From: Candidatus Cloacimonadales bacterium
GTDB taxonomy: Bacteria; Cloacimonadota; Cloacimonadia; Cloacimonadales; JAFGVF01
Assembly (NCBI GenBank): GCA_963667035.1
Contig: OY762964.1
Coordinates: 320,001 to 384,000, forward strand
Length of the DNA: 64,000 nt
Reading direction: 5' to 3'
Below the pieces are notes generated by a model. The model saw only the letters and a list, made by a program, of their open reading frames with translations, was not told the DNA's origin and ran no database searches. Below, in pieces: positions 4,147 through 24,293 of the stretch (the stretch's first letter is position 1; the number at the start of each line of letters is the position of its first letter). The translations under genes and the position numbers were made by a program.

Positions 4147-4159
4147 TATTCCTCCATCA

Positions 4160-4909
4160 TTAATTATTCAAGACTGATTTAAAGAACTCATCGGCACATT
4201 CAATAATAATATCTTTATCATAGTCCATAGTTGCCACATGATAAGAATTATCTAACCAGATAAGTTTCTTCATATTTGAGCGGATGTTCTCATAAGTCCA
4301 TTCTGCACTTACAACAGGGACGACATGATCATCTTTAGACTTGAATATAATAACCGGTTGTGTCAATTTGTGCAAGTCCAATCTTACCGCTGTTATTAAC
4401 TTAAGCATTTGATGAATTCCTTCTAGAGGAGTTTTTTCATAGGCTATCTCTTTTTGAGATTTATCTTTAATGTCTGATGCTATAGGTTTAGTCGTTCTTT
4501 TGATACTTTTGAGAAATGGTATCCACTTCATCATTGGATTCGTAAAAATCATAGCATGATTAATTAGAGCAGCACCTTTTAGAATGGGATATATTTCCAG
4601 CATCCGCATTGAAAGGGTTCCTCCCATAGATAAACCTAGAATGAATACGTTCTTCGTTCTTTTCATACAGTCATCAATGCCCTTTTCTACATCTTTAATC
4701 CAGTCTGTGTATTGAGTGTTCTCAAGGTCTTGCCAGTCTGTTCCATGCCCGCTCAGAGGGGGCATCTCTACGTGATACCCTTTCTCAGCAAACCTTTCTG
4801 CTACGTAAAGCATACTGGAAGTTGTCGAAGTGAAACCATGTACAATAACAACGCCTATGTCTTCTGTTCCTTCATAACTGAACTCATGGTGATGTTTTAA
4901 CAAACTCAT
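4160..4909 (-). CDS. Alpha/beta-hydrolase carboxylesterase / monoacylglycerol lipase (Est30/YvaK-like)
   Basis: VHGFTS, GLSMGG nucleophile elbow, DDHVVP, NSYHV; directly downstream of glpK. Confidence 0.85.
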   Translation of the reverse strand: MSLLKHHHEFSYEGTEDIGVVIVHGFTSTTSSMLYVAERFAEKGYHVEMPPLSGHGTDWQDLENTQYTDWIKDVEKGIDDCMKRTKNVFILGLSMGGTLSMRMLEIYPILKGAALINHAMIFTNPMMKWIPFLKSIKRTTKPIASDIKDKSQKEIAYEKTPLEGIHQMLKLITAVRLDLHKLTQPVIIFKSKDDHVVPVVSAEWTYENIRSNMKKLIWLDNSYHVATMDYDKDIIIECADEFFKSVLNN

Positions 4910-4917
4910 TGTTCCTC

Positions 4918-6420: not shown

Positions 6421-6488
6421 AAGAACTTTGTAACTATATAAATTTATTAGTCAAGAATAATCTCTTTATATGAACAAGAAGAAAAAAA

Positions 6489-8852
6489 CTACAGAAGACT
6501 TATCGGGTCAATATCCAAAGTAGAATGAATAGTTGTTAATTTTGGTCCGTTAGTAAGAATATAATCAATAGCTTTATGTAGCAGAGCTATGCTAGGAGCT
6601 CTAACTATGACATGGTATCTGTAATTATTATTAACTTTGGGAATAGGAGCTTCAATAGGTCCATTTATTATGACTTTGTTATCCAATGTATCGGCGATTA
6701 TCTTAAACATAGGTTGTAAACCAATCATTGATTTTTGGAGTGAATTCTGATTTTTACACTGGTAAACGATTCTTGCCATTTTATAGAATGGGGCATACTT
6801 TAGAGCTTTTCTTAACTCAAGCTCTTCTTTTACAAACAAAGATTGATCTCTCGCCACAGCATATCTAATGGAGTAATGTTCCGGTAGATAAGATTGAATA
6901 ACCACTTCACCGACTTTATCAGCTCTACCCGGGCGTCCTGCAATTTGTATTAGTAACTGGAATGCACGCTCTGAAGCCCTAAAATCAGGGAAACTGAGTG
7001 ATAAATCTGCCGAAATGACTACTGCTAAGGTTACATTGGGAAAATCTAATCCTTTAGCAATCATCTGTGTCCCAAGCAATATGTCAACACTACCTGAAAT
7101 CATTGATTCAAAAAGCTCTTCATGAGCATTTCGTTTTTTTGATGTATCTGAATCTATACGGAGTATGCTTGCTTCGGGAAATCTCTCCTTTAAAATCTCT
7201 TCAATTCTCTGAGTACCGGGAGTTCCAAGTCTAAATTCATAGGAACCACAATTACTGCATTTACGAGGAGGAGGTGTTTCTAATCCGCAATAATGGCACA
7301 CGAGCTTATTCAAGTCCTTATGATAGTGCATGCTGATATCACAGTTATTGCATTTTACTATTTCACCACAAGAAGTGCATTGGATGTAAGCGGAAAAAGC
7401 TCTTCTGTTATGAAGTATCATGATTTGTTCTTTTGCTTTCAAACGATCCGCAATCTTATTGATAAGATATGGGGAAAATATAGTTCCCTTTGCTTCTTTT
7501 CTCATGTCTACCAGAGTAATTTTAGGCTCTTTATGCTTAGTTGGTCTGTGAGTCAATTTCAAGAGCTTGTACTTACTTGTGAAGACATTATTGAACGACT
7601 CCAAACTTGGGGTAGCACTTCCTAAAATTACAGGACAATTATGAGCTTTTGCTCTCACGATAGCAATATCTCTTGCATTATAGCGAGGAGCAATATCTTG
7701 CTTATAACTTTGATCGTGCTCTTCATCAACAACAATCAAACCAAGATTGGCTAAAGGAGCAAAAATTGCGCTTCTTACTCCTACTACTATTCTTGTGAAA
7801 CCATTGTTTATTCTTTTCCACTCTTCATACCGAGCTCTATCTGAAAGACCGCTATGTAGAATAGATACACTGTTTCCAAAGACAGCTTTAAATCTGGTTG
7901 CAGTTTGGGGTGTAAGAGAGATTTCAGGTATTAATACAATACCTGTTTTACCATTATTCAGTACCTCTTTCAGCACTCTGATATACACTTCTGTTTTACC
8001 ACTTCCTGTAATTCCGTGTAAAAGGAATGGAGAAAACTCTTTAAGATTGGAAGTGACTTTCCCAATGGCTTCTTCTTGCTCTTTTGAGAGTTGTATGCTT
8101 TCGTCTTGTTTATAAGATCTATCTAATTGAAACCCATCAGGACAAGGTAGTGAAACAGCCTTAATTGCACCTTTTTTCTCCAAGGCTCTTATCACATAAG
8201 AAGAGAATCTCTTATTAAGAGAATTCTTTGGATACATTCCATCTTTCTCAAGTAAGAAATCCATTACTATTGTTTGCAAATCAGTAAGTTTTACTTCTCG
8301 GTTATTTATCTTTAAGTAAGTGCAAACTTTATCATTTACTTTCTGAGGATATCTACGCTCAATTTGTATCAGATCTTGTTGTTCTAATTCTAGTATTCTG
8401 GAATAGAAGTTACCTGTTTTTGATTCACGTCGGATTTTATTCAGCTTATGCTTTTTATTCTTGTCTAGCTCTGAAAGGTATTGAGTGAGATTATCAATAA
8501 TTGGAAAATCCTTCAGAACAATAACATCTTGCATTATCTCAAGATTAAAGGCTGGCGGAAGAATCGAAAAAAGAGCTTTCCCAAGACTGCAAAAGTAGTA
8601 ATTGCTTATCCATGAGGCTAGTTTATAGAGTTGTGTATTTATTAAGGGGTCTTCATCAATAATCTCTATGACAGGTTTATACTTAATGGTAGAATCAAGA
8701 ATTGATTCATCAACTTCTTCTCCGGCTATTCCAACTTTAATGATATTCTGGAAAGGAACGATCAATCTCGCTCCTTTCTTAATTGGAGTAAAGGAGTAAT
8801 AATGAAAAGTGGTATCAATATCAATATTCAAGTATACTTCATAATAAATCAT
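6489..8852 (-). CDS. priA: Primosomal protein N' (replication-restart helicase)
   Basis: GITGSGKTEVY, PEISLTPQ, DEEHD, GSATPS, two CxxC zinc-finger pairs, GTQMIAKGLDFP; ATG 8852 preferred as start. Confidence 0.95.
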   Translation of the reverse strand: MIYYEVYLNIDIDTTFHYYSFTPIKKGARLIVPFQNIIKVGIAGEEVDESILDSTIKYKPVIEIIDEDPLINTQLYKLASWISNYYFCSLGKALFSILPPAFNLEIMQDVIVLKDFPIIDNLTQYLSELDKNKKHKLNKIRRESKTGNFYSRILELEQQDLIQIERRYPQKVNDKVCTYLKINNREVKLTDLQTIVMDFLLEKDGMYPKNSLNKRFSSYVIRALEKKGAIKAVSLPCPDGFQLDRSYKQDESIQLSKEQEEAIGKVTSNLKEFSPFLLHGITGSGKTEVYIRVLKEVLNNGKTGIVLIPEISLTPQTATRFKAVFGNSVSILHSGLSDRARYEEWKRINNGFTRIVVGVRSAIFAPLANLGLIVVDEEHDQSYKQDIAPRYNARDIAIVRAKAHNCPVILGSATPSLESFNNVFTSKYKLLKLTHRPTKHKEPKITLVDMRKEAKGTIFSPYLINKIADRLKAKEQIMILHNRRAFSAYIQCTSCGEIVKCNNCDISMHYHKDLNKLVCHYCGLETPPPRKCSNCGSYEFRLGTPGTQRIEEILKERFPEASILRIDSDTSKKRNAHEELFESMISGSVDILLGTQMIAKGLDFPNVTLAVVISADLSLSFPDFRASERAFQLLIQIAGRPGRADKVGEVVIQSYLPEHYSIRYAVARDQSLFVKEELELRKALKYAPFYKMARIVYQCKNQNSLQKSMIGLQPMFKIIADTLDNKVIINGPIEAPIPKVNNNYRYHVIVRAPSIALLHKAIDYILTNGPKLTTIHSTLDIDPISLL

Positions 8853-8887
8853 GATTCCAACCAATTTAGCTTTTAATAAAAGTCAAA

Positions 8888-8919
8888 AAAAAACAGCTTT
8901 GCTAAAGCAAAGCTGTTTT
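8888..8919 (-). terminator. Intrinsic terminator of the Agl/Glt-like operon
   Basis: AAACAGCTTTGC-TAAA-GCAAAGCTGTTT with a long T-run on the minus strand, running into the priA -35 box. Confidence 0.8.
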
Positions 8920-8934
8920 ATAATTATAAGATTC

Positions 8935-10437
8935 CTAGCTACGAAGCATAAGCTTAAATCCATAGCCGAGAGATTCTTTAAGTTTCATAGGGAACTTCCA
9001 ACCAAGAACTATGTCTCTTGCTTTCTTTAAGAAGTCAGGAGTAAATACACTACCTGCTGAGCCTTCAATTCCTGCTTCAGTAATGTTACCGTTAACATCA
9101 ACCTCAATAGTAACATTGAGGATACCATAGATGTTTTGGATCTGACGTTCTTTCTCAAAAAGCTGAACAATCTGTTTCTTTCGAATATTCACGAAACGTT
9201 TAATTCTTTCAAAGTTACCTTTTTCCTGAGCACTTAGCTCTTCTTTAGGACCTTCTTCACTAACAACTTTAATGTTCCTAGCTTTGAAACTAGCTATCAT
9301 AGCAACAGCAGTTTTACCACTCAATACTTGAACATTACCTGCTGTAATTGAAGCACCGCCTCCTGCTAATTGTGAAAGGTCAGTTATGGCTGATCCTGCA
9401 CCTTTGAGCTCTGATTGAGTCATTAGAGATGCTGCCCCAACTTGTGAAAGAACAGCTGCGGAGTTATCTAAACCGCCGGCTCCTCCACCAATGCCAGGAC
9501 CTGCACCAGGACCACCACCAGGTTTACCGGGACCTTTGCCTTTACCTTTTCCTGGACCTCGTCCACCACCGCTACCTCCGGCAGCTGCAGCGACAATAGT
9601 CTCAGAAGTAACAGCAAATGCTGGTCCTTTTACTTCAACAAGATCCTTTGTCTCTGATACATCGAAACCTAGAAGAGATTGTGCCATAGCAGCAGCTGCA
9701 GCACTTCTTTCTCCGGCTGACATTTCAGAAATACTTGGACCTTTTTCAGTAACTTCTTCTGTAGGTATTTCTTCATCAGTTTGAGCCTGACCTGTATCTT
9801 GTTCAAGATCTGCAAAACTAGTTCCAATTTGAGATTTAGTGGCAGCTTGAGATTCTCTAATTGCAGCAAGTCTGCTTTCAAGAGTATTCTCAAATACCGG
9901 TGGCCTGTAAGTTCTACTGAATACTGCCATACCGATAAACGAGATTATCATAGCAATAATAATAAAGTTTCTTGTAAATCGTGCTTCTGAAGTTAATTCC
10001 TCAAAACGATGATATTGCTTAATGATTGTCTCCTGCTGTTTTGTATAAGTAGGAGTATAAGGATCACCAAAGCTATAGGTGATTTCATAATCATCATTTA
10101 GTTGTATTGTACCACTTGTTTCCGGTGATAAAACAAATTTGGTACCGTTAAGAAGGTTCTTCTTCTTTAACTCATCCAAAGTCATTTCTTGATTATCACC
10201 TTTAACAATGTTAAGCTTCATATCTTTTGTGAGCATTACATTGAAAGTATTGCTTTGCTTAACAACGAAAAGATGCTTATCAGGAAATTTGGGGTCTATA
10301 ATCTGCCAGAACATTTTGCTATCTTTACCAAGATACATTTTATTCGCAATTAATGACTCCTTATTTCCTATGGATGCGGCATAATTAATCTGTTTACCAC
10401 GGAAGTAAAGGCGCATTCTTAATACTTTTTCACTCAT
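8935..10437 (-). CDS. GltG/AgmX/PglI-like energy transducer (N-terminal cytoplasmic FHA-like domain, single TM, Gly/Pro-rich linker, TonB-C-like domain)
   Basis: KVLRMRLY..GK N-terminus; TM FIIIAMIISFIGMAVF; GGRGPGKGKGKGPGKPGGGPGAGPG linker; C-terminal QIVQLFEKERQ..IYGILNVTIEVDVNGNITEA..WKFP; directly downstream of exbB/exbD/exbD. Confidence 0.7.
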   Translation of the reverse strand: MSEKVLRMRLYFRGKQINYAASIGNKESLIANKMYLGKDSKMFWQIIDPKFPDKHLFVVKQSNTFNVMLTKDMKLNIVKGDNQEMTLDELKKKNLLNGTKFVLSPETSGTIQLNDDYEITYSFGDPYTPTYTKQQETIIKQYHRFEELTSEARFTRNFIIIAMIISFIGMAVFSRTYRPPVFENTLESRLAAIRESQAATKSQIGTSFADLEQDTGQAQTDEEIPTEEVTEKGPSISEMSAGERSAAAAAMAQSLLGFDVSETKDLVEVKGPAFAVTSETIVAAAAGGSGGGRGPGKGKGKGPGKPGGGPGAGPGIGGGAGGLDNSAAVLSQVGAASLMTQSELKGAGSAITDLSQLAGGGASITAGNVQVLSGKTAVAMIASFKARNIKVVSEEGPKEELSAQEKGNFERIKRFVNIRKKQIVQLFEKERQIQNIYGILNVTIEVDVNGNITEAGIEGSAGSVFTPDFLKKARDIVLGWKFPMKLKESLGYGFKLMLRS

Positions 10438-10448
10438 AGTATACTCCT

Positions 10449-11012
10449 CTAAATCTTCGAAGGCATAGTAAGCACACTTGCTCTATTTTCTTCATGTTTT
10501 GAAGCAAAATAAATATTAGAGAACTTTGCTTTAGCTGCAATATAAACCAGTTCAGTAATAATTTGACAAGGTGTTGAATAATCAGCCTGAATAATTAAGA
10601 GGGGAGCAAGATCAGGATTAGAACTTATAAGTGCCTCAACCTCAGTTTCAAGATATGTCTTCAGATTTTCTCTGGTATTCTGATCATTGACAATCTGTTC
10701 TAATGTACCAACAGGAGTATTGTCAGTACCCACATATATATTATCGGGATATACTTTCACAAGTAATGTTCTTGTAGAGCTCTCATCATACTCTTCTTGA
10801 GTCAGAGTTGTAGGGAACTCTAATCCCTTGGGTTGACTTAAGACCTGTGCAGTCATGTTAACATTCTTAATCAGGAAAACAAGTAGGATAGTGAGGATAT
10901 CAACCAGTGAGGTAATGTTCAACTGTTTGACTTTACCTTTGTTATTCTTAGCACGTGCATAACCTTCTTCTTCAAAATCATCTTCAAGTTCAAAGTTTCT
11001 ATTTCTTAACAT
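10449..11012 (-). CDS. ExbD/TolR-family protein, AglS-like
   Basis: LNITSLVDILTILLVFLIK TM with conserved Asp; LIIQADYSTP..II..V..A..A.F..I.F periplasmic domain. Confidence 0.85.
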   Translation of the reverse strand: MLRNRNFELEDDFEEEGYARAKNNKGKVKQLNITSLVDILTILLVFLIKNVNMTAQVLSQPKGLEFPTTLTQEEYDESSTRTLLVKVYPDNIYVGTDNTPVGTLEQIVNDQNTRENLKTYLETEVEALISSNPDLAPLLIIQADYSTPCQIITELVYIAAKAKFSNIYFASKHEENRASVLTMPSKI

Positions 11013-11023
11013 ATGCACCTCTG

Positions 11024-11548
11024 CTATTGCATTTGAACGAGTTTACGACGTTGATAAGCAACATCTGGGAATCTTACTTTTCCGTCTTCAGTAGACATCT
11101 TGCAAATATCAATTATTCTTAGTAAATGCTCATATTTAACATTATCATAAGGAGTAATTTTAATAGTTTGCTGTTCAGGATTCCTTTTCTTAACTCCATC
11201 AAGGTATTTATCCAATTCTACATAATTGAAATCATCTATGAACTTACGTTTCTTATCAAGCTCTTCAATAACTTCAATTCCTCGAGTAAACTTACCGTCT
11301 ACTTCGTCATTATATATGACTAGGTCAACGGCATATACTTTTTCATCTTCACCGCCTCCACCGTCTCCTGAACCTCCTGCATCCGCGCCTGAAAAATTCA
11401 GAGCAAGAAGTGTTACTTGCACGGATACAACCATGAAAAGCAACATCGGAATGATGGTTAAAAAGAGATTCATGATCGGCACAAGGTTTGGCGGATCAGT
11501 TGAGTGGGAAGCTTTATTGCTTCTACTTTGAGACGGTCTATAAGCCAT
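11024..11548 (-). CDS. ExbD/TolR-family protein, AglQ-like (Asn at the conserved Asp position)
   Basis: NLVPIMNLFLTIIPMLLFM TM; IKITPYDNVKYEHLLRIIDIC ExbD-like C-terminus. Confidence 0.85.
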   Translation of the reverse strand: MAYRPSQSRSNKASHSTDPPNLVPIMNLFLTIIPMLLFMVVSVQVTLLALNFSGADAGGSGDGGGGEDEKVYAVDLVIYNDEVDGKFTRGIEVIEELDKKRKFIDDFNYVELDKYLDGVKKRNPEQQTIKITPYDNVKYEHLLRIIDICKMSTEDGKVRFPDVAYQRRKLVQMQ

Positions 11549-11550
11549 TA

Positions 11551-12285
11551 TTATTCCTTAATATTAGCGTTAATCTTATTAATCATTTTAACACTGTATT
11601 CATCAATGTCATTCATGATTTTTTCTGCTCTGTTTCTAAGGGCACCTTGAATCAATGTTGTAGGGATAGCAACGATAAGACCCATACCTGTTGTACCCAT
11701 CGCAGCTTTAATACCACCGGTAAGAGCTTCTTGTTGTTCTGTACCAACTTTACCTTCAAGAGAACTGAAAGCAAGGATAAGACCGTAAATAGTACCAAGA
11801 AGACCGGTAAGAGTAGAAATATTAGCGATGATTTCAAACCAGAAAAGACCGGACTCAATTTTTGGAATCTTCTGTAACGAAGCTTCATCAAATGCTCTTT
11901 GAACTGATCTTTTGAGTTCCATACCTTTTACACCGCTTTTCTGCTGATCAACAAACACTTTCAAACCACTCCAGAAGATAAATCCAAGTGTAGTTTTCTT
12001 GAATGCTTCTGTAATTTTGATAGCTTCATTGTAGTTTTCTGATTTAACATACCCTTGTAACTTCAAGTAGAAATTACGAGTATCAATTTTTTCATCGAGG
12101 AAGAGTTTTTTGAATTTAACAAATCCATAAACTATAGCAATTATAAGATAGCCGAGGATGATATAAGCCCAGAATGATGACTCTTTCCATACTGATGCAA
12201 AATCCAATCCACCGGTTGGAGCTGCAAATAATGATACTCCCATTAATATCAGCAATGCAACTAAAAACAATCTCTTACTTTTCAT
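11551..12285 (-). CDS. MotA/TolQ/ExbB ion-channel protein, AglR-like
   Basis: IANISTLTGLLGTIYGLILAF and GIKAAMGTTGMGLIVAIP TM motifs; signal-peptide-like N-terminal extension. Confidence 0.9.
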   Translation of the reverse strand: MKSKRLFLVALLILMGVSLFAAPTGGLDFASVWKESSFWAYIILGYLIIAIVYGFVKFKKLFLDEKIDTRNFYLKLQGYVKSENYNEAIKITEAFKKTTLGFIFWSGLKVFVDQQKSGVKGMELKRSVQRAFDEASLQKIPKIESGLFWFEIIANISTLTGLLGTIYGLILAFSSLEGKVGTEQQEALTGGIKAAMGTTGMGLIVAIPTTLIQGALRNRAEKIMNDIDEYSVKMINKINANIKE

Positions 12286-12299
12286 GCTTTCTCCTTTTT

Positions 12300-12512
12300 C
12301 TAATATAAATTTCTATTCGACTCTTTTAACTTCATTAGTAGAAACTTATGATACTTGTTATTGTATTCGGTTTTCTTACGGAGAAGGTTTGATTCAATCT
12401 TTGGAGCTTTTCGGATTTCAGCTTCAAATACTTCAGTTTCCGTAAAGGTAACCGATTTCACTAATGAAAAAGCCAAAACTAATAGTAAAACTGAGAGAAT
12501 CTTCTTCTTCAT
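12300..12512 (-). CDS. Small exported protein, GltF/CglF-like
   Basis: Signal peptide MKKKILSVLLLVLAFSLVKS; SD GGAGGAG; start overlaps upstream stop; F.E.EI.K.P...R...F...L.ES pattern and position between the TPR gene and exbB resemble GltF. Confidence 0.55.
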   Translation of the reverse strand: MKKKILSVLLLVLAFSLVKSVTFTETEVFEAEIRKAPKIESNLLRKKTEYNNKYHKFLLMKLKESNRNLY

Positions 12513-15500
12513 TATTCTCCTCCCTTTTTATAAACAAGGTTCATATCAAGAATCAGGGCAGTTTGCTTTTTGCTACTCTCAACCTTAACCACTATCGAGT
12601 TAAGCTCACTATTGAAACCGGCAGGATCAATGTCAACAGGGTTTGAGAAGATTGCATTATTCTCTTCATCAGTAAATGCTTCTATCTCCTCCGATATCAT
12701 TATGCCATTTAACCAGATAGTTGCCTTTTCAACAGCAGCAAATTTCAAACTTGCTTTTATAACTTCTTGGTATCCTATGAAGTCCTTCTTAAAGTATTTC
12801 ACATAAGTTTTTGTTTCTTCGGTAGGAATTTCTTCTATTGCCAGGCTATCAGTTAGAGTTGTATCTGAAACAGCAATCTCAGTAATTTCTTCTCTAACAA
12901 TTGTGCTATCTATCTCTGCTTTTTGCATAACAGTACTAGTAGCATATATCCATCTGGCAGATGTAGACTCCATATCATAAATCTTATCAGTAGGATATAT
13001 CTGTTCGAATGATTCAACGGCAATCCATTCACTATTAGCGGTACTCATAGAATCTGACGGAATATAAATATCTGACATTTTCCATTCACTACCTGATATA
13101 ATCTTATCTTCAGCAGTTGTTCTATGATAATTTAAGGTTTCGCTGTCAAAGGCAACTTGCATATTTAATGCCAATACAGCTGTTGTATCTGAGATATTGT
13201 CTGCTTTAACCTCGAACTTATTAGTTCCTTCTTTTAACATTGAATAATCAATTTTATATAGATAGTGAGGTGTTATCTGATTGTTAATTGTTAAAGAATC
13301 AACAAAAACAGGTAGTTGCTTAACTATCGTATCATTAACCCAGAACTTAATGTTTGCAGTATCAGGATAAGCAAATTGAATATAAGCTTTCGCAGGAAGA
13401 ATCTCTGCACTTGTAGTGCAACTTGCAAAGACACTGTTGTAAGGTCTTATCTCAAAACCACTCAATACTAGATTTCGAGGTGTTACAAATTGGCTAATCT
13501 CATTATAACTTTTTGTTGGTACATAGAGTGAATCAGGTGATTCTAAAAGATTGTTCTCAACAAACCATGATGTATCAGGGGGCATGTCATTAACATCAAG
13601 TTGTGGTACTAAATCTGCAATCTTAGGCATCATCGTTTCAATATTCTTATCTGTATAACCTGTGCCATCAACAAAGAAGTTGTACAAATTGAGGTATCTC
13701 TTTCTTGATTCTTCGCGATATAGCTCTACAAAGCTATCTGTCATTGGTTTCAATTGAAGCTCAATAACATTATCAACTTGGTCTTTTCCTGACGCTTGTT
13801 TAAGATTGTAAATTTCATTAGATTGAGTGAAGTAGAATTCCATTCTGCGATCAACAACTTTTGCTGCATGTTCCCAAATCTCTCCTGATATATATAGCAA
13901 CCTTACTTTTCTAGGAATATCAATATTCCATTCAGCAGCTTCTTGAAGAAGCTTTACCAACTCGCCTTCTTTTTTGGAGGCTAATTGATAAACATATTGA
14001 ATTCTGTTATTATCTTTAGAAACTGTTTGATTAGTTTTATTTAATACATGAGTTCTAAACTTAGTGTTATGATTAACTCTAAAAATATCTTTGTCATTTG
14101 CGTTTAGCCATGAATTTCTAAGGTTAGTAAGACGTTTATCATAGCTAGCAAGAAAATCTGCTCTGTCTTTTAGATATTGCTGATATTCCTGCCATGCTTT
14201 GTATTCCGCAGCATAGTAATCGAACCATTTATTAATCTCAGGCATAATCTCAGTGAGGTTGACGCCTTTCTTGGAATAATAACTTTCAAGTTTTCTTACT
14301 TCATCAATTTTAGCATTCATGCTATCCCAGTCTTCGGACTTAAAGGCAACATCGGCTTCCTTAACAACCTTATCAATCTTCTGAAATGCTATTGCACTAT
14401 ATAAATCGACAGAAGGATCTTTTTCATAGATGTAATGAGCAATCTGTTCATACTTATCCTTATCAGTATCATAGTAGGCTTTTGCTATAAACTTCAAATA
14501 ATCCATAGAACTTGGATCATCAGGATAAATTTTTTCGAATTTACTCATTAACGAAATCAAAGTATCTTGATTCGCTGTTTCATCTTGAAGGTAAATATTG
14601 ATAGCCATTTTATAGATATCTTCTGTTTTATTTTCACCAATGTCTATTTTGCCATTCTTAGCAGTGTTATGTAGTTCTAAATATCCTGCAGCTGCATCAT
14701 ATTTATATGTACCTGAGTTTTCTTTTTCCTTTAACTGATTAAGGATTATAGTAAAAGACTCATTGGATTCAGGGAACTTTGAGACAAATCTATTTTGAAT
14801 AGATATTACTTGTGTTGTATCTGACAAAACAGTATCAGCTATAGCCCAAGCGTTGTAATATAATGAATGAATATCTTTAAGCTCGGTTTTAAACTCAGCA
14901 TTCTCTAATAGTATATCAATAGAATTCTGATAATCTCCACCTTTAAAGAATAGCTGACGTGCCTTATCCCTTAAATCATAAACCCTATCTTTGTCTGTTT
15001 TAGGGTCGAACTTAGATGCTAATCTAAGCTGTTCATTAGCCGCTGTTATATAATCTGCAGTATCAGCTAATCTGTCTACATTCTTGTTAATTTGAGCTAA
15101 GTAGCTTTGTTTAAGCTCTTTCTGGTCTTCTTCATCATTAGCATACTTTTGAGCTTCAGCATAATACCCCTCTGATTGGTTGAACTCAGACTTCTTCTCG
15201 TGTAATTGAGCCAAAAGCACGTAGATATCTCTAGTTCTAACCTTCTCATTCTGATATTTCAATAGTTCATTTAAATCAGCTACAACCATATCGTCATTTT
15301 CAAGCTCTCTATTTATAATACTTCTGTTCCAAAGAATACTCTTTATCACATTGTCTTGTTCAGGAGTATAGAACTCATTGCTTGTTATGACTTCATAAAA
15401 TCTACTTGCCCCGGCAACATATAAGCTATCGAGATAAGACTTTGTAATCTCAATATTGTTAATTTCGTCGAAGTAAGTCGAATCTGCTACTATTGGACTA

Positions 15501-16996
15501 AGCTTGTTATAGGCATAATCGGTTGCTGAAAAAAGCATATATTCTTTTTCATAGCTAACAGTAGTATCTGATGAAGCTGCTTCTTGTGTTAGGATAAGAT
15601 TCTGTGTAAAAAGGTAGTATTCAGTTTGACCAGTATTCTCAGCCAAGTTGAAACCAAAATTTATCATCTTATCACTTTTGTCTGTTAACCAAGCAATGCC
15701 TGCCTCATCTTTAAATTCAGGAATTTCAGCATAGGCATTGATCAAATCAATATAGCGTTTATAGTTTTCGACAGATGCTTGATTAATGAGGTCATTACTA
15801 TAGAATGTTTCAAGTCTTTCAAACTTATTTCTTACGGAGTTGAAATAGCTCATGAATTCATGATTGTTTCTATTAGCATTGTACCAATCAGAGTTATAGC
15901 CATAAGATGAAATAGCGTATAATGATTTCTCCTTAACAACATCTCTATATTCTTTACCATCCCTAATGTAGCTGGCATAAGTTGAATATAAATCCAATAC
16001 TGAATCAATATAAGTAGGATTGCTGATATTTAATGAATCCAAGCTAATACGAGCAAAATAGTAATCGCCTGCTTGCATAGGAGCATTCAAATCGAGTTTA
16101 AGATTAATAACTTCGTCAAAGATGCGTTGATTTATTGAAAGGGTAAAAAGAGATGCATAATTGTTTATAAAGGCATCTGCTGATTTAGCATAATCTAAAT
16201 AATTAGTACTATCTATACCCACCAAAGAGTAAGCAACATTCTCAACCGCAAAATCATGATAATAGAGTTTTGTATAGTCTCTGTCGTCTTTTAAGATTGA
16301 TGCAAAGTCAGTGATAGCATTATCCCAATCGGACATTTGGTAATATGCCCATGCTCTTTGGAATAAAGCATCTGTTTTCATGTTACTAATTTCATCATCA
16401 CGATTAATCAATATCGAAAGAAAAGCTGCTGATTTCTTGTAGTAATTTAAAGGGATTTCAGCATTCGTGGCTATATCTGAGAATATAAGTGCAAGTTTGA
16501 ATATGCTTTCATCATAATAATCCGTATAACTGTACTCTTCAATAACTTTTGCATAAAAGTCCTTGGCTTCGGAAAACACTTCATTTGAGTATTTTAAAGA
16601 GTCTGGCCAAGTAACAAAAGTCGGATTAGCTTCTTCATATAATGGTCTGCCATCATCAATCCTATCTTTTGCCATTTTATAACTGTAATATGCGATATTG
16701 TATAAGATAATCTCTTTGTCATAGAAATTAGGATCCGCCTCAAGTACTTTCTTATACCAATTTAAAGTAATGGAGGGGGTCTCACGGTATAAGCTCGAGC
16801 TTATCTCTGCTAAGTTATAATACAACTTAGGAAGATTAGGACTATTAGGATTATCTAGAATAAACTGTTGTGTTTGTCTATAAATATCCGCTTTATAATT
16901 CTGAACCTCTTCAAATTGATCTTTAAGACTTTTTTGTCCCCACAACCCACTTAATGCAAGTAAAAATAAAATAATAACAACACTACATTTTTTCAT
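12512..16996 (-). CDS. Very large exported TPR-repeat protein (GltD/AgmU-like) with C-terminal beta-sandwich domains
   Basis: Signal peptide; TPR helices (LYYNLAEI, ALFQRAWAYYQMSDWDNAITDFASIL, IYVLLAQLHEK); beta-rich C-terminus. Confidence 0.75.
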   Translation of the reverse strand: MKKCSVVIILFLLALSGLWGQKSLKDQFEEVQNYKADIYRQTQQFILDNPNSPNLPKLYYNLAEISSSLYRETPSITLNWYKKVLEADPNFYDKEIILYNIAYYSYKMAKDRIDDGRPLYEEANPTFVTWPDSLKYSNEVFSEAKDFYAKVIEEYSYTDYYDESIFKLALIFSDIATNAEIPLNYYKKSAAFLSILINRDDEISNMKTDALFQRAWAYYQMSDWDNAITDFASILKDDRDYTKLYYHDFAVENVAYSLVGIDSTNYLDYAKSADAFINNYASLFTLSINQRIFDEVINLKLDLNAPMQAGDYYFARISLDSLNISNPTYIDSVLDLYSTYASYIRDGKEYRDVVKEKSLYAISSYGYNSDWYNANRNNHEFMSYFNSVRNKFERLETFYSNDLINQASVENYKRYIDLINAYAEIPEFKDEAGIAWLTDKSDKMINFGFNLAENTGQTEYYLFTQNLILTQEAASSDTTVSYEKEYMLFSATDYAYNKLSPIVADSTYFDEINNIEITKSYLDSLYVAGASRFYEVITSNEFYTPEQDNVIKSILWNRSIINRELENDDMVVADLNELLKYQNEKVRTRDIYVLLAQLHEKKSEFNQSEGYYAEAQKYANDEEDQKELKQSYLAQINKNVDRLADTADYITAANEQLRLASKFDPKTDKDRVYDLRDKARQLFFKGGDYQNSIDILLENAEFKTELKDIHSLYYNAWAIADTVLSDTTQVISIQNRFVSKFPESNESFTIILNQLKEKENSGTYKYDAAAGYLELHNTAKNGKIDIGENKTEDIYKMAINIYLQDETANQDTLISLMSKFEKIYPDDPSSMDYLKFIAKAYYDTDKDKYEQIAHYIYEKDPSVDLYSAIAFQKIDKVVKEADVAFKSEDWDSMNAKIDEVRKLESYYSKKGVNLTEIMPEINKWFDYYAAEYKAWQEYQQYLKDRADFLASYDKRLTNLRNSWLNANDKDIFRVNHNTKFRTHVLNKTNQTVSKDNNRIQYVYQLASKKEGELVKLLQEAAEWNIDIPRKVRLLYISGEIWEHAAKVVDRRMEFYFTQSNEIYNLKQASGKDQVDNVIELQLKPMTDSFVELYREESRKRYLNLYNFFVDGTGYTDKNIETMMPKIADLVPQLDVNDMPPDTSWFVENNLLESPDSLYVPTKSYNEISQFVTPRNLVLSGFEIRPYNSVFASCTTSAEILPAKAYIQFAYPDTANIKFWVNDTIVKQLPVFVDSLTINNQITPHYLYKIDYSMLKEGTNKFEVKADNISDTTAVLALNMQVAFDSETLNYHRTTAEDKIISGSEWKMSDIYIPSDSMSTANSEWIAVESFEQIYPTDKIYDMESTSARWIYATSTVMQKAEIDSTIVREEITEIAVSDTTLTDSLAIEEIPTEETKTYVKYFKKDFIGYQEVIKASLKFAAVEKATIWLNGIMISEEIEAFTDEENNAIFSNPVDIDPAGFNSELNSIVVKVESSKKQTALILDMNLVYKKGGE

Positions 16997-16998
16997 GC

Positions 16999-19041
16999 CT
17001 ACTTGCCTCCCGGTGATGAGTTACTACTATTATCTCTTGCTTTTATAAAGGCATCATCTTGCTTGACTGTATCAATGTAAAGCAAGTCGATAATAGTATA
17101 ATCAAACTCTGATTTTACTCTATTTATGTCTGACCTAATATTTGCAACTACAGCGGTATGGTCATCAATAACCACATCCTGTTTAACAGCGTCCTTTTCA
17201 GTTCTTCTTAACAAGATTGCAGCTAAACGCTCATTAAAGCTTTCAGCAACGAATTTACGAATTTCGAGAAGGTCCTGTCTATCCTCTAAGAGGCTGTTTA
17301 GCTCAGTTTCAAGTTCATTAGCTGTTTCTTTGTTAATCCAGTAATCACTGTAACGTAATTCCATTTCATTTTCAAGATTAGCAATGCTCTTGTGCAAATC
17401 CAAAATATATTGGTCAATAGATTCAATCTTAGCTTGATTATCTTTAGTTCTAATAAGGTCTTTAACATTTCCCCACATTTGAATCATTTTCTTAGATTCA
17501 TATATTTCACTTGCTACTGACAAAGCAATGTTGAGATCATTTTGAGATACAGTTTCCATATCCAAAAGGAATCTCTTAGCCAAAGCAAGAACGTACAGTT
17601 GATCTGTATATAAAATGACATCGTCAACCATAGATACTCTGCTGTCATTAGGTTGTTCACCAAGAACATGCAAATGCAACACTTCTTCAACTATACTATT
17701 TACTGAGTCAATATAATCATTTTCCATTGTCCAAAGTTCACGAAGCTTTTCCTCGTCTGCACCTGATGCTGTTGTGAGCATCTTTTCTGAAGCTAGAGAT
17801 ATCTTATCTTCTGCACTTTGGATTTTTGTTATTAAATCAAGTTTTTCTTCTTTTGACTCTGCATCGAAAAGTTGCATTTTTAAGTTTTGCAGCTCTTCCA
17901 CTTTCTTATGTTTAGCAATAAGAATATCTAGATATAGATTGGCGAAATCCATTGCTGAATCAACAATCTCTTTTTGCTCACTAAGTGATTTATCCTTATA
18001 ATCCATAGTTGCAAGGAGGTAAACACATGCAGTATAATATTCATTATTAAATGGGTTAGCCTGAATATCTTCCAGTAACGCTTTAGCCATTTCCAAATCA
18101 CCGTTATTCATATTCATTACAGCGATTTCGAATTTAACTTCAGCAGTCATCTTGCCTGTTACACTAACTATAGAGTTGTATTGAGAATAGTACTTAGTTG
18201 CACTCTCAATATCACCTCTTTGAGCTTGGATACGGGCAATACTCAATGGTATATATTCATAATAAGGAGTATTTACCGGGTATGCTTGCATAAGGAGTAA
18301 AAATGACTCTAAACCTGCTTCAAGTGGCTCTGTAAATGATGAAATCAAGGCGATCATAAACTGTGACCTAAAGCCAAAAGTCTGATCTTCTGTTAAGGTT
18401 TCAAATACATTAACTGCATCTATGTACTTATTCTCATTGTATAAAGTTTGCCCATACCAATAATCTTGTGAACTAGATTTATCCCAGACATATTCCTCGT
18501 ATGATTTGAGGAATTTCTCATTCTGCCCACTCTTAATATAAATATTCTGCAAAGTATAATTTGCAGATTTATATTTAGAAGATGCAGGATACTTATTTAT
18601 CAGATTCTCAAGTTTGGTTTGAGCTCTAGAATAGTCTTTTTTCTGGAAATCAATCAGGGCTCCATAGAAAAGGAATTCATCGTTGACAGCACTTGTACTC
18701 TTGTAAGCAAGCTTTAAATCTTCAAGTAGCAAAATTGTCTTAGACAAATCCTTCTCAACCAAGCTGCTTTTCAAAGTAGACTCATCTTCTTTGAAAAGCT
18801 CTTTTATCTGGTCATAAAGCCCTTGTTTCTCTAGGTTCTTAACTTGACGTTTTCTTAAGGCTACGGTTCTTAATTGATCTATCTGATCTTCCAAATCAAC
18901 TACATCACTAAGTTCGTCCTTAATAATCTGAACCCTATCAGACTGTTCTAAACCGTTCCACTGGTTCTCACTAATCTCAGCATACGCTAAAACGCTCAGG
19001 TACAATGAAATCAATAAGAAAAGATATGATATCTTTCTCAT
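16999..19041 (-). CDS. Exported TPR / coiled-coil protein
   Basis: Signal peptide; TPR motifs (FLFYGALIDFQKKDYSRAQTKLENLINKYPAS, YWYGQTLYNENKYIDAVNVF); long coiled-coil C-terminal half. Confidence 0.75.
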   Translation of the reverse strand: MRKISYLFLLISLYLSVLAYAEISENQWNGLEQSDRVQIIKDELSDVVDLEDQIDQLRTVALRKRQVKNLEKQGLYDQIKELFKEDESTLKSSLVEKDLSKTILLLEDLKLAYKSTSAVNDEFLFYGALIDFQKKDYSRAQTKLENLINKYPASSKYKSANYTLQNIYIKSGQNEKFLKSYEEYVWDKSSSQDYWYGQTLYNENKYIDAVNVFETLTEDQTFGFRSQFMIALISSFTEPLEAGLESFLLLMQAYPVNTPYYEYIPLSIARIQAQRGDIESATKYYSQYNSIVSVTGKMTAEVKFEIAVMNMNNGDLEMAKALLEDIQANPFNNEYYTACVYLLATMDYKDKSLSEQKEIVDSAMDFANLYLDILIAKHKKVEELQNLKMQLFDAESKEEKLDLITKIQSAEDKISLASEKMLTTASGADEEKLRELWTMENDYIDSVNSIVEEVLHLHVLGEQPNDSRVSMVDDVILYTDQLYVLALAKRFLLDMETVSQNDLNIALSVASEIYESKKMIQMWGNVKDLIRTKDNQAKIESIDQYILDLHKSIANLENEMELRYSDYWINKETANELETELNSLLEDRQDLLEIRKFVAESFNERLAAILLRRTEKDAVKQDVVIDDHTAVVANIRSDINRVKSEFDYTIIDLLYIDTVKQDDAFIKARDNSSNSSPGGK

Positions 19042-19074
19042 TACTTCCTACTTAAAAAGTTGAGAGTGGTTAAT

Positions 19075-20052
19075 TTATTCAGACTCTTCGAGAATTCTTC
19101 TGATATCTTCAAGTTCCTGTTGAGCCTTTTGTCTTCTTTCTCTAATTGCTCTTAACTCTTGAAGAAGATCGTCTGTTTCTCCTAACTGGTCTTGATTTGT
19201 AATAACTCTAGTTCCTCTGATAGCATCTTTGTTGCTACCTGCAATCCTTGGTTGCTTGGATTCTTTTACATAGTCGTTAAATGTATAAGAAAGAGCAAAA
19301 GTGAAATTCAGTTTATCATATGAATCATCACCTTTGAAATATTCATCTAACTCAGTAAATGCCATTCTAAGAGCAAAATCATTATAATTTAAATCTATTC
19401 CGGCATTAACCATGGATCCATCAACTTCACCGATTACACCAAACCACTTATTAGGGCGGAAAAGAACAGAAGCGAATAACCCGCTGAAATCTGATGATAA
19501 ATCACCGACTCCTTGATATTTTTGCTTTGAACCGATACCTAATGAAGCTACAGTCTCAATGTAACTAAATACAGGTAAACCACGAATTACGGTTGACTTG
19601 GTAGCAACAGCATAGAATGCGTTCTTCTCGAAATATCTTGAATAATAGCCGTACTTATCTACGTCTCTATTGGGTGCGTCACCAGAGTCTGCATCACGTC
19701 CAATAGGTGAGCCGATATTATCCATACCGAAAGATACTGCAGGAAACTTTACTGTTTCTTCAAAAACTTTAACCTTTGCATTAGCAAAGGCTAGTCCGTC
19801 ACAGTCATCTGTGTATACAACTCCTACTTCAATTCTGTCCCAAAGACCGCCTGAAATCGCACCTACAAGCTTACTTTCAAGTTTGCCGTTACCGTCGTCA
19901 CGTGTGTAAGTAGCAAAAGTTCCGGTAAATTCTGTGTGAGGCACTACATAGCCATTTGGTGTTCTAATAGCTGAGCCTAAAGATGTAAACGGTGCTGCTA
20001 TCAGTGAACAGATGAAAAGCATTACAAATACAATAAGGTAAATTTTCTTCAT
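19075..20052 (-). CDS. Probable outer-membrane beta-barrel protein (YjbH-like) with C-terminal coiled-coil tail
   Basis: Signal peptide; IRTPNGYV, RIEVGV, NAKVKVFEE...PAVSFG, amphipathic strands ending LNFTFALSYTF, then a ~65-aa tail; first gene of the operon with strong SD. Confidence 0.6.
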   Translation of the reverse strand: MKKIYLIVFVMLFICSLIAAPFTSLGSAIRTPNGYVVPHTEFTGTFATYTRDDGNGKLESKLVGAISGGLWDRIEVGVVYTDDCDGLAFANAKVKVFEETVKFPAVSFGMDNIGSPIGRDADSGDAPNRDVDKYGYYSRYFEKNAFYAVATKSTVIRGLPVFSYIETVASLGIGSKQKYQGVGDLSSDFSGLFASVLFRPNKWFGVIGEVDGSMVNAGIDLNYNDFALRMAFTELDEYFKGDDSYDKLNFTFALSYTFNDYVKESKQPRIAGSNKDAIRGTRVITNQDQLGETDDLLQELRAIRERRQKAQQELEDIRRILEESE

Positions 20053-20128
20053 CAATTCCCCCTCCTAGGGATTATTTTTTTTCCATATTTAAATCAATAA
20101 ATTAGACTTTATCAGTAATAAAATACAA

Positions 20129-20147
20129 TTGACAATTATTTAGTCAA
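20129..20147. promoter_or_regulatory. Overlapping divergent -35 boxes (TTGAC-N9-GTCAA palindrome) for yraN and the Agl/Glt-like operon
   Basis: TTGACA at 20129-20134 (+) and TTGACT at 20147-20142 (-). Confidence 0.5.
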
Positions 20148-20173
20148 GGAATTTCTATAATACTGAGGTTAGT

Positions 20174-22824: not shown

Positions 22825-22988
22825 GATTTATGAGTAGCCACTTTACTTAGATGTATCTTTACTAAGCAGGCAAGTAATCTTTGTTTAATCATGCTTAACG
22901 AAAAAATGATGCAGGAAGGCAAAGAAAAAGTTGTCATCATTAATGAAATCATAAAAGTAACAAAAAAACATAAACAATGAGGAACAAA

Positions 22989-24284: not shown

Positions 24285-24293
24285 GAAGCGTTT

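What the first reader, a model, noticed from the sequence alone, without database searches (positions are those of the whole stretch)
8935..20052. Complete Agl-Glt-core-like envelope motor operon in a probable Cloacimonadota genome
Seen: eight tightly coupled co-oriented genes with one upstream promoter region and one terminator: OM barrel, TPR/coiled-coil protein, 1494-aa TPR protein, 70-aa exported peptide, ExbB-like, two different ExbD-like, and a TonB-like protein with an N-terminal cytoplasmic domain. No TonB-dependent receptor, tolB or pal is nearby. Established: a TolQ plus two TolR paralogs (AglRQS) with TPR proteins (GltD/E), small GltF and TonB-like GltG form the core of the Myxococcus gliding machine and its Nfs spore-coat paralog; the core's role outside myxobacteria is largely unknown. 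Inference: an ion-driven trans-envelope machine for surface motility, surface-polymer handling or secretion in a lineage where I know of no characterised equivalent.
Basis: partly seen in the sequence, partly recalled or inferred. Interest (0 to 1): 0.78.

Follow-up and report, generated by a model that had tools for sequence, protein, structure and literature searches.

The report
Single-aspartate Glt-type envelope motor, Cloacimonadota
An eight-gene operon kept by most Cloacimonadota genomes encodes a divergent relative of the core of the Myxococcus gliding motor, with its own outer-membrane barrel and only one of the two usual proton-carrying aspartates, and it likely moves a cell-surface polymer rather than the cell.

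Summary
The eight-gene operon is real (minus strand, 20055 to 8935). Its ExbB-like ortholog occurs in 162 of 232 Cloacimonadota genomes, and the gene order held in all 60 loci read. It is a variant of the Agl-Glt 'core complex'. The ExbB-like gene groups with AglR-type proteins (100/99), apart from TolQ/ExbB. The TonB-like protein has an FHA-fold, membrane helix and AgmX/PglI-type tail, like GltG. The 1494-aa protein is GltD-like. GltC and GltF identity rests mainly on position, and GltE is missing. A seven-gene sister cluster occurs in KSB1 and Calditrichota. Three features set it apart: a predicted 12-stranded FapF-like barrel unrelated to the barrels of myxobacteria-type clusters; weak sugar-binding-type domains on GltD; and Asn in place of the channel Asp in the AglQ-position subunit (63 of 63), the substitution reported to paralyse Myxococcus AglQ. 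Gliding is unlikely (MglB-type gene in 1 of 114 genomes). An obligate T9SS motor is unlikely (SprA persists where the operon is missing). Best reading: ion-driven handling of an envelope polymer; the cargo is untested. This scan found the same operon before in other Cloacimonadota (e1-9740147, e1-7711585).

The parts
19075..20055 (-). Outer-membrane barrel, 326 aa: signal peptide, conserved N-terminal segment that may be a plug, predicted 12 strands, C-terminal coiled coil; FapF/COG4313/KdgM-like fold
   Evidence: AF2 model pLDDT 67.5 with 12 strands at 43-259; best fold FapF Z 13.1, rmsd 4.2, 192 aligned, tied with KdgM Z 12.4; weak YjbH Pfam match in 6 of 21 homologues; no similarity to myxobacteria-type cluster barrels, E 0.23
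16999..19041 (-). Periplasmic TPR plus coiled-coil protein, 680 aa, in the GltC position
   Evidence: TPR Pfam hits; hhalign 3.6e-26 to KSB1/Calditrichota counterparts and 4.6e-19 to myxobacteria-type GltC, but 2.3e-20 to a generic TPR control; 29 of 60 loci have a single long TPR ORF in place of this gene and the next
12512..16996 (-). GltD-like periplasmic TPR scaffold, 1494 aa, with C-terminal beta-sandwich region resembling sugar-binding domains (residues about 1130-1494)
   Evidence: hhalign 3.9e-54 over 767 collinear columns to the GltD-type family; 9.8e-50 over 1180 columns to KSB1/Calditrichota, 3.5e-29 to myxobacteria-type GltD, control 3.9e-24; C-terminal hits to esterase, lectin, rhamnosidase and GH2 domains, best E 2e-4
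12300..12512 (-). 70-aa exported peptide in the GltF position
   Evidence: Conserved in position and size; profile match to GltF-type peptides E 3.4e-4 with signal peptide, E 0.023 without
11551..12285 (-). AglR-type ExbB/TolQ/MotA motor subunit, 244 aa
   Evidence: PF01618 1e-22; one side of a 100/99 branch with AglR-type proteins; T148 and T181 kept, P141 replaced by T as in the AglR-type group
11024..11548 (-). First ExbD/TolR-type subunit (AglQ position), 174 aa, with Asn at the channel-Asp column
   Evidence: PF02472 1.6e-4; Asn in 63 of 63 Cloacimonadota sequences at the E. coli ExbD D25 column
10449..11018 (-). Second ExbD/TolR-type subunit (AglS position), 189 aa, channel Asp retained
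   Evidence: PF02472 1.7e-12; Asp in 63 of 63
8935..10437 (-). GltG-like transducer, 500 aa: cytoplasmic FHA-fold (1-127), membrane helix (about 158-176), Gly-rich disordered linker, TonB-C/AgmX-PglI-type domain (about 403-498)
   Evidence: AF2 model; FHA folds fill the fold searches, top Z 9.2; hhalign 1.5e-19 to myxobacteria-type GltG N-domain; NF033768 in 14 of 21 homologues, best 3.6e-8, window copy below cut-off
8890..8919 (-). Intrinsic-terminator-like hairpin ending the operon before priA
   Evidence: 13-bp stem plus T-run
20056..20173 (.). 118-bp gap to the divergent YraN-family gene; probable promoter region; strong purine-rich ribosome-binding-like site before the barrel start
   Evidence: promoter matches at chance level overall

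Best explanation
The operon encodes a GltE-less variant of the Agl-Glt core complex that likely works as an ion-driven machine spanning the envelope and likely moves or organises an envelope polymer at its own outer-membrane barrel, not the whole cell. Shown by calls: the parts, their order, their kinship to AglR, AglQ/S, GltG and GltD, the Asn/Asp asymmetry and the distribution. Inferred from the M. xanthus model (PMC11761067) and ExbBD/TolQR knowledge: five AglR-type subunits surround a heterodimer of the two ExbD-type subunits, and only the AglS-position subunit can carry the ion on an Asp. The GltG-like protein docks on the pentamer by its helix and membrane-proximal FHA-fold. Its disordered linker crosses the wall, and its TonB-C domain works on the GltD/GltC-type scaffold, probably via the small peptide. 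The scaffold couples to the 12-stranded barrel. The least supported step is the cargo: a glycan or other surface polymer, as with Agl-Nfs.
For: AglR-type clade, 100/99 support, plus the P141T signature in 54 of 55 versus P in 25 of 25 outgroup rows. FHA-helix-TonB-C architecture and N-domain profile match to GltG-type proteins. Same order as myxobacteria-type clusters whose neighbours hit NCBIfam GltC, GltE and GltG below cut-off. A single long TPR ORF replaces the two TPR genes in 29 of 60 loci, which points to one complex. Barrel gene leads the operon in 59 of 60 loci. For a polymer cargo: weak sugar-binding-type domains on GltD; weak YjbH exopolysaccharide-barrel match in 6 of 21; a polysaccharide-export (OPX) gene follows the cluster in both myxobacteria-type loci where that gene was scanned (L127, L180); Agl-Nfs moves spore-coat glycan without MreB (PMC3858216, passages); PGA synthetase in 107 of 114 phylum genomes.
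Against: No cargo gene is linked in the window. PGA synthetase is equally present where the operon's ExbB is missing (f7 6 of 6, f17 8 of 8). The sugar-binding and YjbH matches are weak (E 2e-4, 4e-4). GltC and GltF assignments do not beat, or barely beat, controls. KSB1/Calditrichota clusters have no barrel match in the 32 loci displayed, and their GltG-like protein is shorter (mostly about 350-400 aa) and matches the Cloacimonadota profile only in the C-terminal domain. Two genomes keep barrel and scaffold without the motor and one keeps the barrel alone, so the outer part may have a job of its own. The Asn could mean a weakened or differently coupled motor.
Confidence: 0.42

Rival explanations
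1. It is a housekeeping outer-membrane tethering or remodelling motor that does the Tol-Pal-type job in a phylum without recognisable Tol-Pal.
For: No TolB match at E 1e-45 in 114 genomes while the control rings in E. coli and Caulobacter; no Pal or TolB over cut-off in the own genome. Single copy in nearly all carriers. It lies among housekeeping genes: priA here, dnaE in relatives, atp operon and aspS in KSB1/Calditrichota. GltG is compared to TolA in PMC11761067.
Against: Near-complete genomes of families f7, f14 and most of f17 have neither this motor nor TolB, so it is dispensable. No Pal-like peptidoglycan-binding lipoprotein is in the operon.
Confidence: 0.2
2. It is an energised channel: the TonB-C domain pulls, through the small peptide, on the plug of the 12-stranded barrel to import or export a small substrate or a peptide.
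For: The barrel's best folds are FapF (amyloid subunit export), KdgM and COG4313, and several alignments start at residues 20-31, the conserved segment before strand 1. The barrel outlasts motor and scaffold in G022. A TonB-box-like pull on Glt barrels has been proposed (PMC9946355, passage).
Against: The genome has three ordinary exbBD-tonB loci, one beside a probable TonB-dependent receptor. The Z-scores are generic for 12-stranded barrels (many rows at 10-13). A scaffold of over 2000 residues is not needed for TonB-type gating.
Confidence: 0.15
3. It drives Myxococcus-type gliding.
For: AglRQS-, GltG- and GltD-type parts, one barrel, and MreB present.
Against: MglB-type Roadblock gene in 1 of 114 genomes, control rings in 3. 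No GYF_2/GltJ match (no positive control). No GltE; barrel unrelated to myxobacteria-type cluster barrels. PMC3169522 (part 5) states that the core alone is unlikely to drive motility. An enrichment of Ca. Cloacimonas fortuita showed sphere-shaped cells in a matrix (PMC13082233, passage); the largest family (f4, which by the source names I take to include Cloacimonas) carries the ortholog in 92 of 98 genomes.
Confidence: 0.1
4. It replaces GldLM as the motor of a type IX secretion system.
For: The own genome has SprA over cut-off and 144 T9SS C-terminal-domain matches. GldM matched in 0 of 158 genomes (no positive control).
Against: SprA is present in 9 of 9 f7, 17 of 21 f17 and 58 of 62 f12 genomes, where the operon's ExbB occurs in 0 of 9, 2 of 21 and 36 of 62, and those genomes have no GldM match either. 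Myxobacteria-type relatives use the core for other jobs.
Confidence: 0.08
5. It is an ordinary ExbBD-TonB uptake or Tol-type operon with unusual neighbours.
For: The window ExbB's best NCBIfam hit is TolQ, 3.4e-19, far below the cut-off.
Against: It falls outside the 25 outgroup ExbB/TolQ rows with 100/99 support; FHA-fold N-domain; no receptor, tolB or pal in the operon.
Confidence: 0.03

Closest known systems
Agl-Glt 'core complex' (Group B: gltC, gltD, gltE, gltG, aglR, aglQ, aglS plus one extra gene; Luciano et al. 2011, PMC3169522)
   Same: One cluster with an AglR-type subunit, two different ExbD/TolR-type subunits, a GltG-type transducer, GltD-type and GltC-position TPR proteins and a small exported protein; function unknown in non-gliders.
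   Different: No GltE. It adds a 12-stranded barrel and sugar-binding-type domains on GltD, and GltC and GltD are often one protein. The paper parts read name Delta-, Gamma- and Betaproteobacteria and one Fibrobacter, not Cloacimonadota, KSB1 or Calditrichota. In the ExbB tree the Cloacimonadota form its own long branch, sister to the other two groups sampled.
Myxococcus xanthus Agl-Glt gliding machine
   Same: Motor type and transducer architecture; the retained cytoplasmic domain matches the N-domain of myxobacteria-type GltG proteins that align to the membrane-proximal part of the GltG model, the part predicted to pack on AglR (PMC11761067).
   Different: No evidence for GltA/B/H-type barrels, GltE, GltJ or MglB. 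AglQ needs Asp28 in M. xanthus (D28N paralyses it; PMC3858216), whereas the AglQ-position subunit here has Asn naturally.
Myxococcus Agl-Nfs spore-coat machine
   Same: The same core used to move a surface glycan, without gliding accessories and without MreB; the nearest functional model.
   Different: Nfs has GltA/B/H-type barrels and an E subunit and borrows an unlinked motor; the cargo here is not identified.
ExbB-ExbD-TonB and TolQ-TolR-TolA
   Same: 5:2 ion-channel motor family; ExbB T148 and T181 kept; TonB-C-type domain.
   Different: Separate clade, heterodimeric ExbD pair with one Asp, FHA-fold on the transducer, no receptor, TolB or Pal.
FapF / COG4313 / KdgM 12-stranded barrels; YjbH (PF06082)
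   Same: Predicted 12-stranded fold, N-terminal segment, coiled-coil extension; weak YjbH profile match.
   Different: About 10% identity; the coiled coil is C-terminal; the fold match shows no function.

Membership tests
Agl-Glt core complex (Luciano 2011 Group B) | AglR-type motor subunit, distinct from TolQ/ExbB | tested here: met
   80-row tree, ingroup 55 versus outgroup 25, 100/99; P141T signature. The reference AglR-type rows are unlabelled metagenome loci, not M. xanthus itself.
Agl-Glt core complex (Luciano 2011 Group B) | Two different ExbD/TolR-type genes after aglR | tested here: met
   each matches its positional counterpart in KSB1/Calditrichota and myxobacteria-type loci
Agl-Glt core complex (Luciano 2011 Group B) | GltG: cytoplasmic FHA-type domain, one membrane helix, TonB-like C-terminus | tested here: met
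   hhalign 1.5e-19; NF033768 in 14 of 21, window copy below cut-off; the full-length GltG model NF033760 did not match
Agl-Glt core complex (Luciano 2011 Group B) | GltD: giant exported TPR protein | tested here: met
   Collinear profile match 3.9e-54; full-length 9.8e-50 through KSB1/Calditrichota; direct match to myxobacteria-type GltD 3.5e-29 against control 3.9e-24; same position
Agl-Glt core complex (Luciano 2011 Group B) | GltC: about 670-aa exported TPR protein | tested here: inconclusive
   Size and position fit; hhalign 4.6e-19 does not beat the generic TPR control 2.3e-20; NF033756 not hit
Agl-Glt core complex (Luciano 2011 Group B) | GltE: separate TPR lipoprotein after gltD | tested here: not met
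   No such gene between gltD and the small gene in the window or 60 loci, nor in the KSB1/Calditrichota loci shown; TPR proteins match GltE-type profiles far below the control
Agl-Glt core complex (Luciano 2011 Group B) | Genes clustered in one operon | tested here: met
Agl-Glt core complex (Luciano 2011 Group B) | Direct AglR-GltG interaction and ion-driven activity | not testable with these tools
Myxococcus Agl-Glt gliding machine | GltF small exported protein | tested here: inconclusive
   Position and size fit; E 3.4e-4 with and 0.023 without signal peptide, unrelated controls 0.8-0.99
Myxococcus Agl-Glt gliding machine | GltA/B/H-type outer-membrane barrels | tested here: not met
   hhalign E 0.23 to the genes upstream of gltC in 21 myxobacteria-type loci, taken as GltA-position barrels; 12 predicted strands
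Myxococcus Agl-Glt gliding machine | MglAB polarity module | tested here: not met
   Roadblock PF03259 in 1 of 114 genomes, none in the own genome, control rings in 3; MglA itself not searched
Myxococcus Agl-Glt gliding machine | GltJ (GYF_2 domain), GltI, GltK, CglB | tested here: inconclusive
   GYF_2 not found but no positive control; GltI, GltK and CglB not searched
Myxococcus Agl-Glt gliding machine | Channel Asp in AglQ (D28) | tested here: not met
   Asn in 63 of 63 at the ExbD D25 column; equating that column with AglQ D28 is an inference, M. xanthus AglQ was not aligned
ExbBD-TonB uptake system | Ordinary ExbB clade, ExbD homodimer, TonB-dependent receptor partner | tested here: not met
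   such loci exist elsewhere in the genome
Tol-Pal | tolB and pal in the operon or genome | tested here: not met
T9SS energising motor (GldLM replacement) | Obligate co-occurrence with the SprA translocon | tested here: not met
   SprA 212 of 232 against operon ExbB 162 of 232; f7 9 of 9 against 0 of 9

The most novel reading that the evidence does not exclude
The ancestral Agl-Glt core is an asymmetric 5:1:1 motor with a single ion-carrying aspartate, inherited vertically in Cloacimonadota and shared with KSB1 and Calditrichota. It drives interchangeable outer-membrane output modules, here a plugged 12-stranded barrel. The two-Asp Myxococcus gliding motor would then be the derived state, and a one-Asp stator would have to work by a cycle other than the alternating two-Asp rotation accepted for MotAB, ExbBD and TolQR.
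Probability: 0.3. Interest if true: 0.78.

Novelty: new variant of a known kind. Interest (0 to 1): 0.52.

Why it matters
The job of the Agl-Glt core outside myxobacteria has been open since 2011. This extends it from scattered proteobacteria and one Fibrobacter to a near phylum-wide trait of Cloacimonadota and to KSB1 and Calditrichota, which include cultured Caldithrix (cultured status from my own knowledge). The conserved Asn/Asp pair is a sharp, testable puzzle about how 5:2 ion motors turn, since the same substitution is reported to stop the Myxococcus motor. Natural deletion stages (motor lost, then scaffold, barrel last) mark the modules. It is not a new kind of system, the cargo is not pinned down, and this scan has reported the operon before.

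Tried and rejected
Complex prediction of the 680-aa TPR protein with the barrel returned no verdict (score 0.03, mark 0.32); it counts neither way. The ESM Atlas gave no answer. No RNA holder was listed for the stretch. tblastn of the ExbB against plasmids found nothing. The window proteins did not hit the full-length NCBIfam GltC, GltE or GltG models. The barrel had no significant sequence match among solved structures. A word-seeded homologue search with the 1494-aa profile reached only Cloacimonadota-type hits, and the ExbB search listing was filled by them. No named M. xanthus or gammaproteobacterial core sequence could be fetched, so 'myxobacteria-type' means unlabelled metagenome loci recognised by NCBIfam neighbours and gene order. 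The redox-module lead from earlier findings was tested by DUF3570 only: absent from the own genome and present in 6 of 21 genomes searched, so it is not a general partner here. The T9SS-motor and PGA-specific readings fail on exclusive co-occurrence. GldM and GYF_2 searches had no positive control. Sun et al. 2011 was not held. No AU test was run, the root is the midpoint, and outgroup sampling is 23 Cloacimonadota paralogues plus two E. coli proteins, so branching order among the three AglR-type groups is provisional.
Full report
Observation. Eight minus-strand ORFs run from 20055 to 8935: 326, 680, 1494, 70, 244, 174, 189 and 500 aa. The gaps are -1 to 33 nt, and a 13-bp hairpin with a T-run lies at 8919-8890. 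Promoter-like matches are at chance level (55 against 56.9). The flanks are priA and a divergent YraN-family gene. The window lies in a one-contig genome of 3.10 Mb, 98% complete. Named homologues are Cloacimonadota. The genome has three other exbB loci of ordinary exbBD-tonB appearance, one beside a 1029-aa probable receptor (read from translations).

Conservation. A profile of the ExbB-like gene matched at E 1e-40 or better in 162 of 232 phylum genomes, and in 114 of 151 high-quality ones. It was missing from families f7 (0 of 9), f14 (0 of 6), f9 (0 of 2), f16 (0 of 1), most of f17 (2 of 21) and part of f12 (36 of 62). I read 60 loci, chosen among ExbB hits with room on the contig and so not a random sample: 20 and 40. 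All keep the order. The barrel leads in 59 of 60. A single ORF of 1739-2149 aa replaces the two TPR genes in 29 of 60; in most family-f4 cases its N-terminal part no longer matches the 680-aa profile. Of 19 genomes probed with the barrel profile, 17 of them lacking the motor ortholog, three of those 17 had a full-length barrel. G040 and G176 keep barrel, both TPR genes, the small gene and a secreted TonB-C-domain protein without membrane anchor or motor genes. G022 keeps the barrel alone before priA.

What the parts are. The 500-aa protein folds into an N-terminal beta-sandwich, a membrane helix, a disordered Gly-rich linker and a C-terminal alpha/beta domain. FHA domains fill both fold searches for residues 1-127 (top Z 9.2, rmsd 2.6, 91 aligned), and TonB C-domains also appear. 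Fourteen of 21 homologues hit the AgmX/PglI C-terminal model; the window copy is below its cut-off. This is the GltG architecture described in PMC3169522 (Table 1) and PMC11761067. A profile of the first 1100 residues of the 1494-aa protein, run over 1.84 billion representatives, gave 92 hits at E 1e-30 or better (those looked up by name were Cloacimonadota). Below them came a tier in which 36 of 52 long proteins form one family, collinear with the query at E 3.9e-54 over 767 columns. One branch of that family led to 485 matching stretches in GTDB genomes; the best 80 were labelled mainly KSB1, Calditrichota or unclassified. In 51 of 53 such loci with room, ExbB and both ExbD genes follow, in the order TPR, GltD-type, small, ExbB, ExbD, ExbD, TonB-like. 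The other branch led to mostly GC-rich metagenome loci ordered barrel-sized gene, TPR, GltD-type, TPR, small, (motor), TonB-like. Their members hit NCBIfam GltC, GltE and GltG below cut-off, and 11 of 28 with room carry the motor genes in place. I call these myxobacteria-type; they have no organism label.

Direct profile tests. TonB-like against GltG-type: 1.5e-19, over the N-terminal domain, which corresponds to the part of the GltG model just before the membrane helix. 1494-aa protein: 9.8e-50 over 1180 columns against KSB1/Calditrichota, 3.5e-29 against myxobacteria-type GltD, 1e-4 against GltC, 1e-5 against GltE, and 3.9e-24 against a generic TPR control. 680-aa protein: 3.6e-26, 4.6e-19 against GltC, and 2.3e-20 against the control, so GltC identity is not shown by sequence. 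Small peptide: 3.4e-4 against GltF-type, falling to 0.023 without signal peptides. Barrel: E 0.23 against the gene upstream of gltC in myxobacteria-type loci. There is no GltE gene.

The motor. In an 80-row tree (21 Cloacimonadota, 22 KSB1/Calditrichota taken as every third locus, 12 myxobacteria-type, 25 outgroup) the first three groups lie on one side of a 100/99 branch, each a supported group. The ingroup rows had been filtered at E 1e-30 to the Cloacimonadota profile; this dropped only two contig-end fragments. ExbB T148 is kept in all ingroup and outgroup rows and T181 in all 55 ingroup rows. P141 is T in 54 of 55 ingroup rows and P in 25 of 25 outgroup rows. At the E. coli ExbD D25 column, the second ExbD has Asp in 63 of 63, 60 of 60 and 11 of 11. 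The first has Asn in 63 of 63 Cloacimonadota, 55 of 60 KSB1/Calditrichota (5 Asp) and 7 of 11 myxobacteria-type (2 Gly, 2 Asp). PMC3858216 states that aglQ D28N abolishes proton conductance and paralyses gliding and sporulation. That D28 is the same column is my inference. If it holds, most non-Myxococcus cores sampled run with one Asp. I found no paper or earlier scan note on this, but those searches are narrow.

The outer parts. The barrel model has 12 strands, an N-terminal conserved segment and a C-terminal helix. FapF, KdgM, COG4313 and autotransporter barrels are the nearest folds at Z 11-13, which shows fold only. Six of 21 homologues weakly match YjbH. All four KSB1/Calditrichota-type genomes probed hold unlinked proteins of 342-449 aa, barrel-like on reading, that share the coiled-coil tail. 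The last 365 residues of the GltD-like protein weakly match jelly-roll sugar-binding domains (best E 2e-4), and two family members hit the rhamnosidase model there.

How it most likely works. By analogy with the AlphaFold model of the M. xanthus complex (PMC11761067, parts 1-3 and passages), the AglR-type pentamer holds the ExbD heterodimer, and the transducer docks by its helix and FHA-fold. Its TonB-C domain reaches the GltD/GltC scaffold via the small peptide, and the scaffold meets the barrel. All of these contacts are inferred here. For the job, the core without accessories is said not to drive motility, while Agl-Nfs moves a surface glycan. The genome has MreB, PGA synthetase, SprA and 144 T9SS cargo-domain matches. 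It has no Roadblock/MglB, no GldM match (no control), no TolB or Pal over cut-off and no DUF3570. Across the phylum, Roadblock is in 1 of 114, TolB in 0 of 114, GldM in 0 of 158, SprA in 212 of 232 and PgsB in 107 of 114. SprA and PgsB persist in operon-less families, so neither needs this motor. I put polymer handling at 0.42, Tol-Pal-type envelope upkeep at 0.2, gated transport at 0.15, gliding at 0.1 and T9SS motor at 0.08.

Known and new. It works like the Agl-Glt core and descends from the same stock, but it fails the GltE test, so I file it as a variant and not as a standard member. Literature seen: PMC3169522 parts 2-5 of 8; PMC11761067 parts 1-3 of 7 plus passages; passages of PMC3858216, PMC9946355, PMC8542988 and PMC13082233; nothing of Sun et al. 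2011. Searches for Agl-Glt with Cloacimonetes, Cloacimonadota, Calditrichota or KSB1 listed no paper that joins them. PMC8542988 has no 'gliding', 'TonB' or 'ExbB' in its main text, and PMC13082233 has no 'gliding' or 'TonB'. Supplements were not read; Figure S1 and Tables S2-S3 of PMC3169522 define the core's extra gene and could bear on the small peptide. This scan has reported the same operon in other Cloacimonadota and related cores in other phyla.

Verdict. Real, conserved, a new variant of a known but functionally unexplained system. Interest 0.52.

Noticed in passing
L252 (G040:C4) 3970-12520; L253 (G176:C53) 4294-12844; L251 (G022:C22) 6374-7351: Motor-less derivatives: barrel, both TPR genes, small gene and a secreted 255-258-aa TonB-C-domain protein with no exbB/exbD; in G022 the barrel alone precedes priA.
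   Followed up: partly
G000:C1:2434071-2439020 and genome-wide: A 2063-aa SprA-type T9SS translocon and 144 T9SS C-terminal-domain matches in a genome with no GldM match; SprA in 212 of 232 phylum genomes, GldM in 0 of 158 (no positive control). What energises this secretion system is unexplained.
   Followed up: partly
L205-L210 (G232-G235): KSB1/Calditrichota-type genomes carry unlinked barrel-like proteins of 342-449 aa with the same C-terminal coiled-coil tail as the operon barrel, two in tandem in G232 and one next to a TPR gene in L210.
   Followed up: partly
L127:18477-19106; L180:20828-21475: In myxobacteria-type clusters a polysaccharide-export (OPX) gene follows gltG after two unannotated genes of about 190-220 and 440 aa; genes of the same sizes recur in many of these loci.
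   Followed up: partly
L008, L013 and others, upstream of the barrel; L079, L060 flanks: dnaE and two GWxTD-domain genes precede the operon in many Cloacimonadota; in KSB1/Calditrichota the cluster sits between the atp operon and aspS, followed by a LysM gene and phoH.
   Followed up: no
G203-G208 (family f14): Six small (1.5-1.6 Mb) one-contig Cloacimonadota genomes lack this operon's ExbB, SprA and PGA synthetase together, suggesting a stripped-down envelope.
   Followed up: no
G036:C2:3557408, G031:C1:2042840, G135:C3:365950: The PGA synthetase gene lies roughly 10-20 kb from the operon in three family-f2 genomes, but far away in the own genome.
   Followed up: no
L254 (G222:C407) 253-2448; G209: Two tandem barrel genes lead the operon in G222; G209 has a second, unlinked copy.
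   Followed up: no
L036, L041, L035, L046, L065, L125, L151: A minority of clusters have Asp in the first ExbD as well, so one-Asp and two-Asp motors coexist within both sister groups.
   Followed up: partly
window 22977-26235: A MacAB-type efflux set (membrane-fusion protein, ABC ATPase, permease) on the plus strand; looks ordinary, read from translations only.
   Followed up: no
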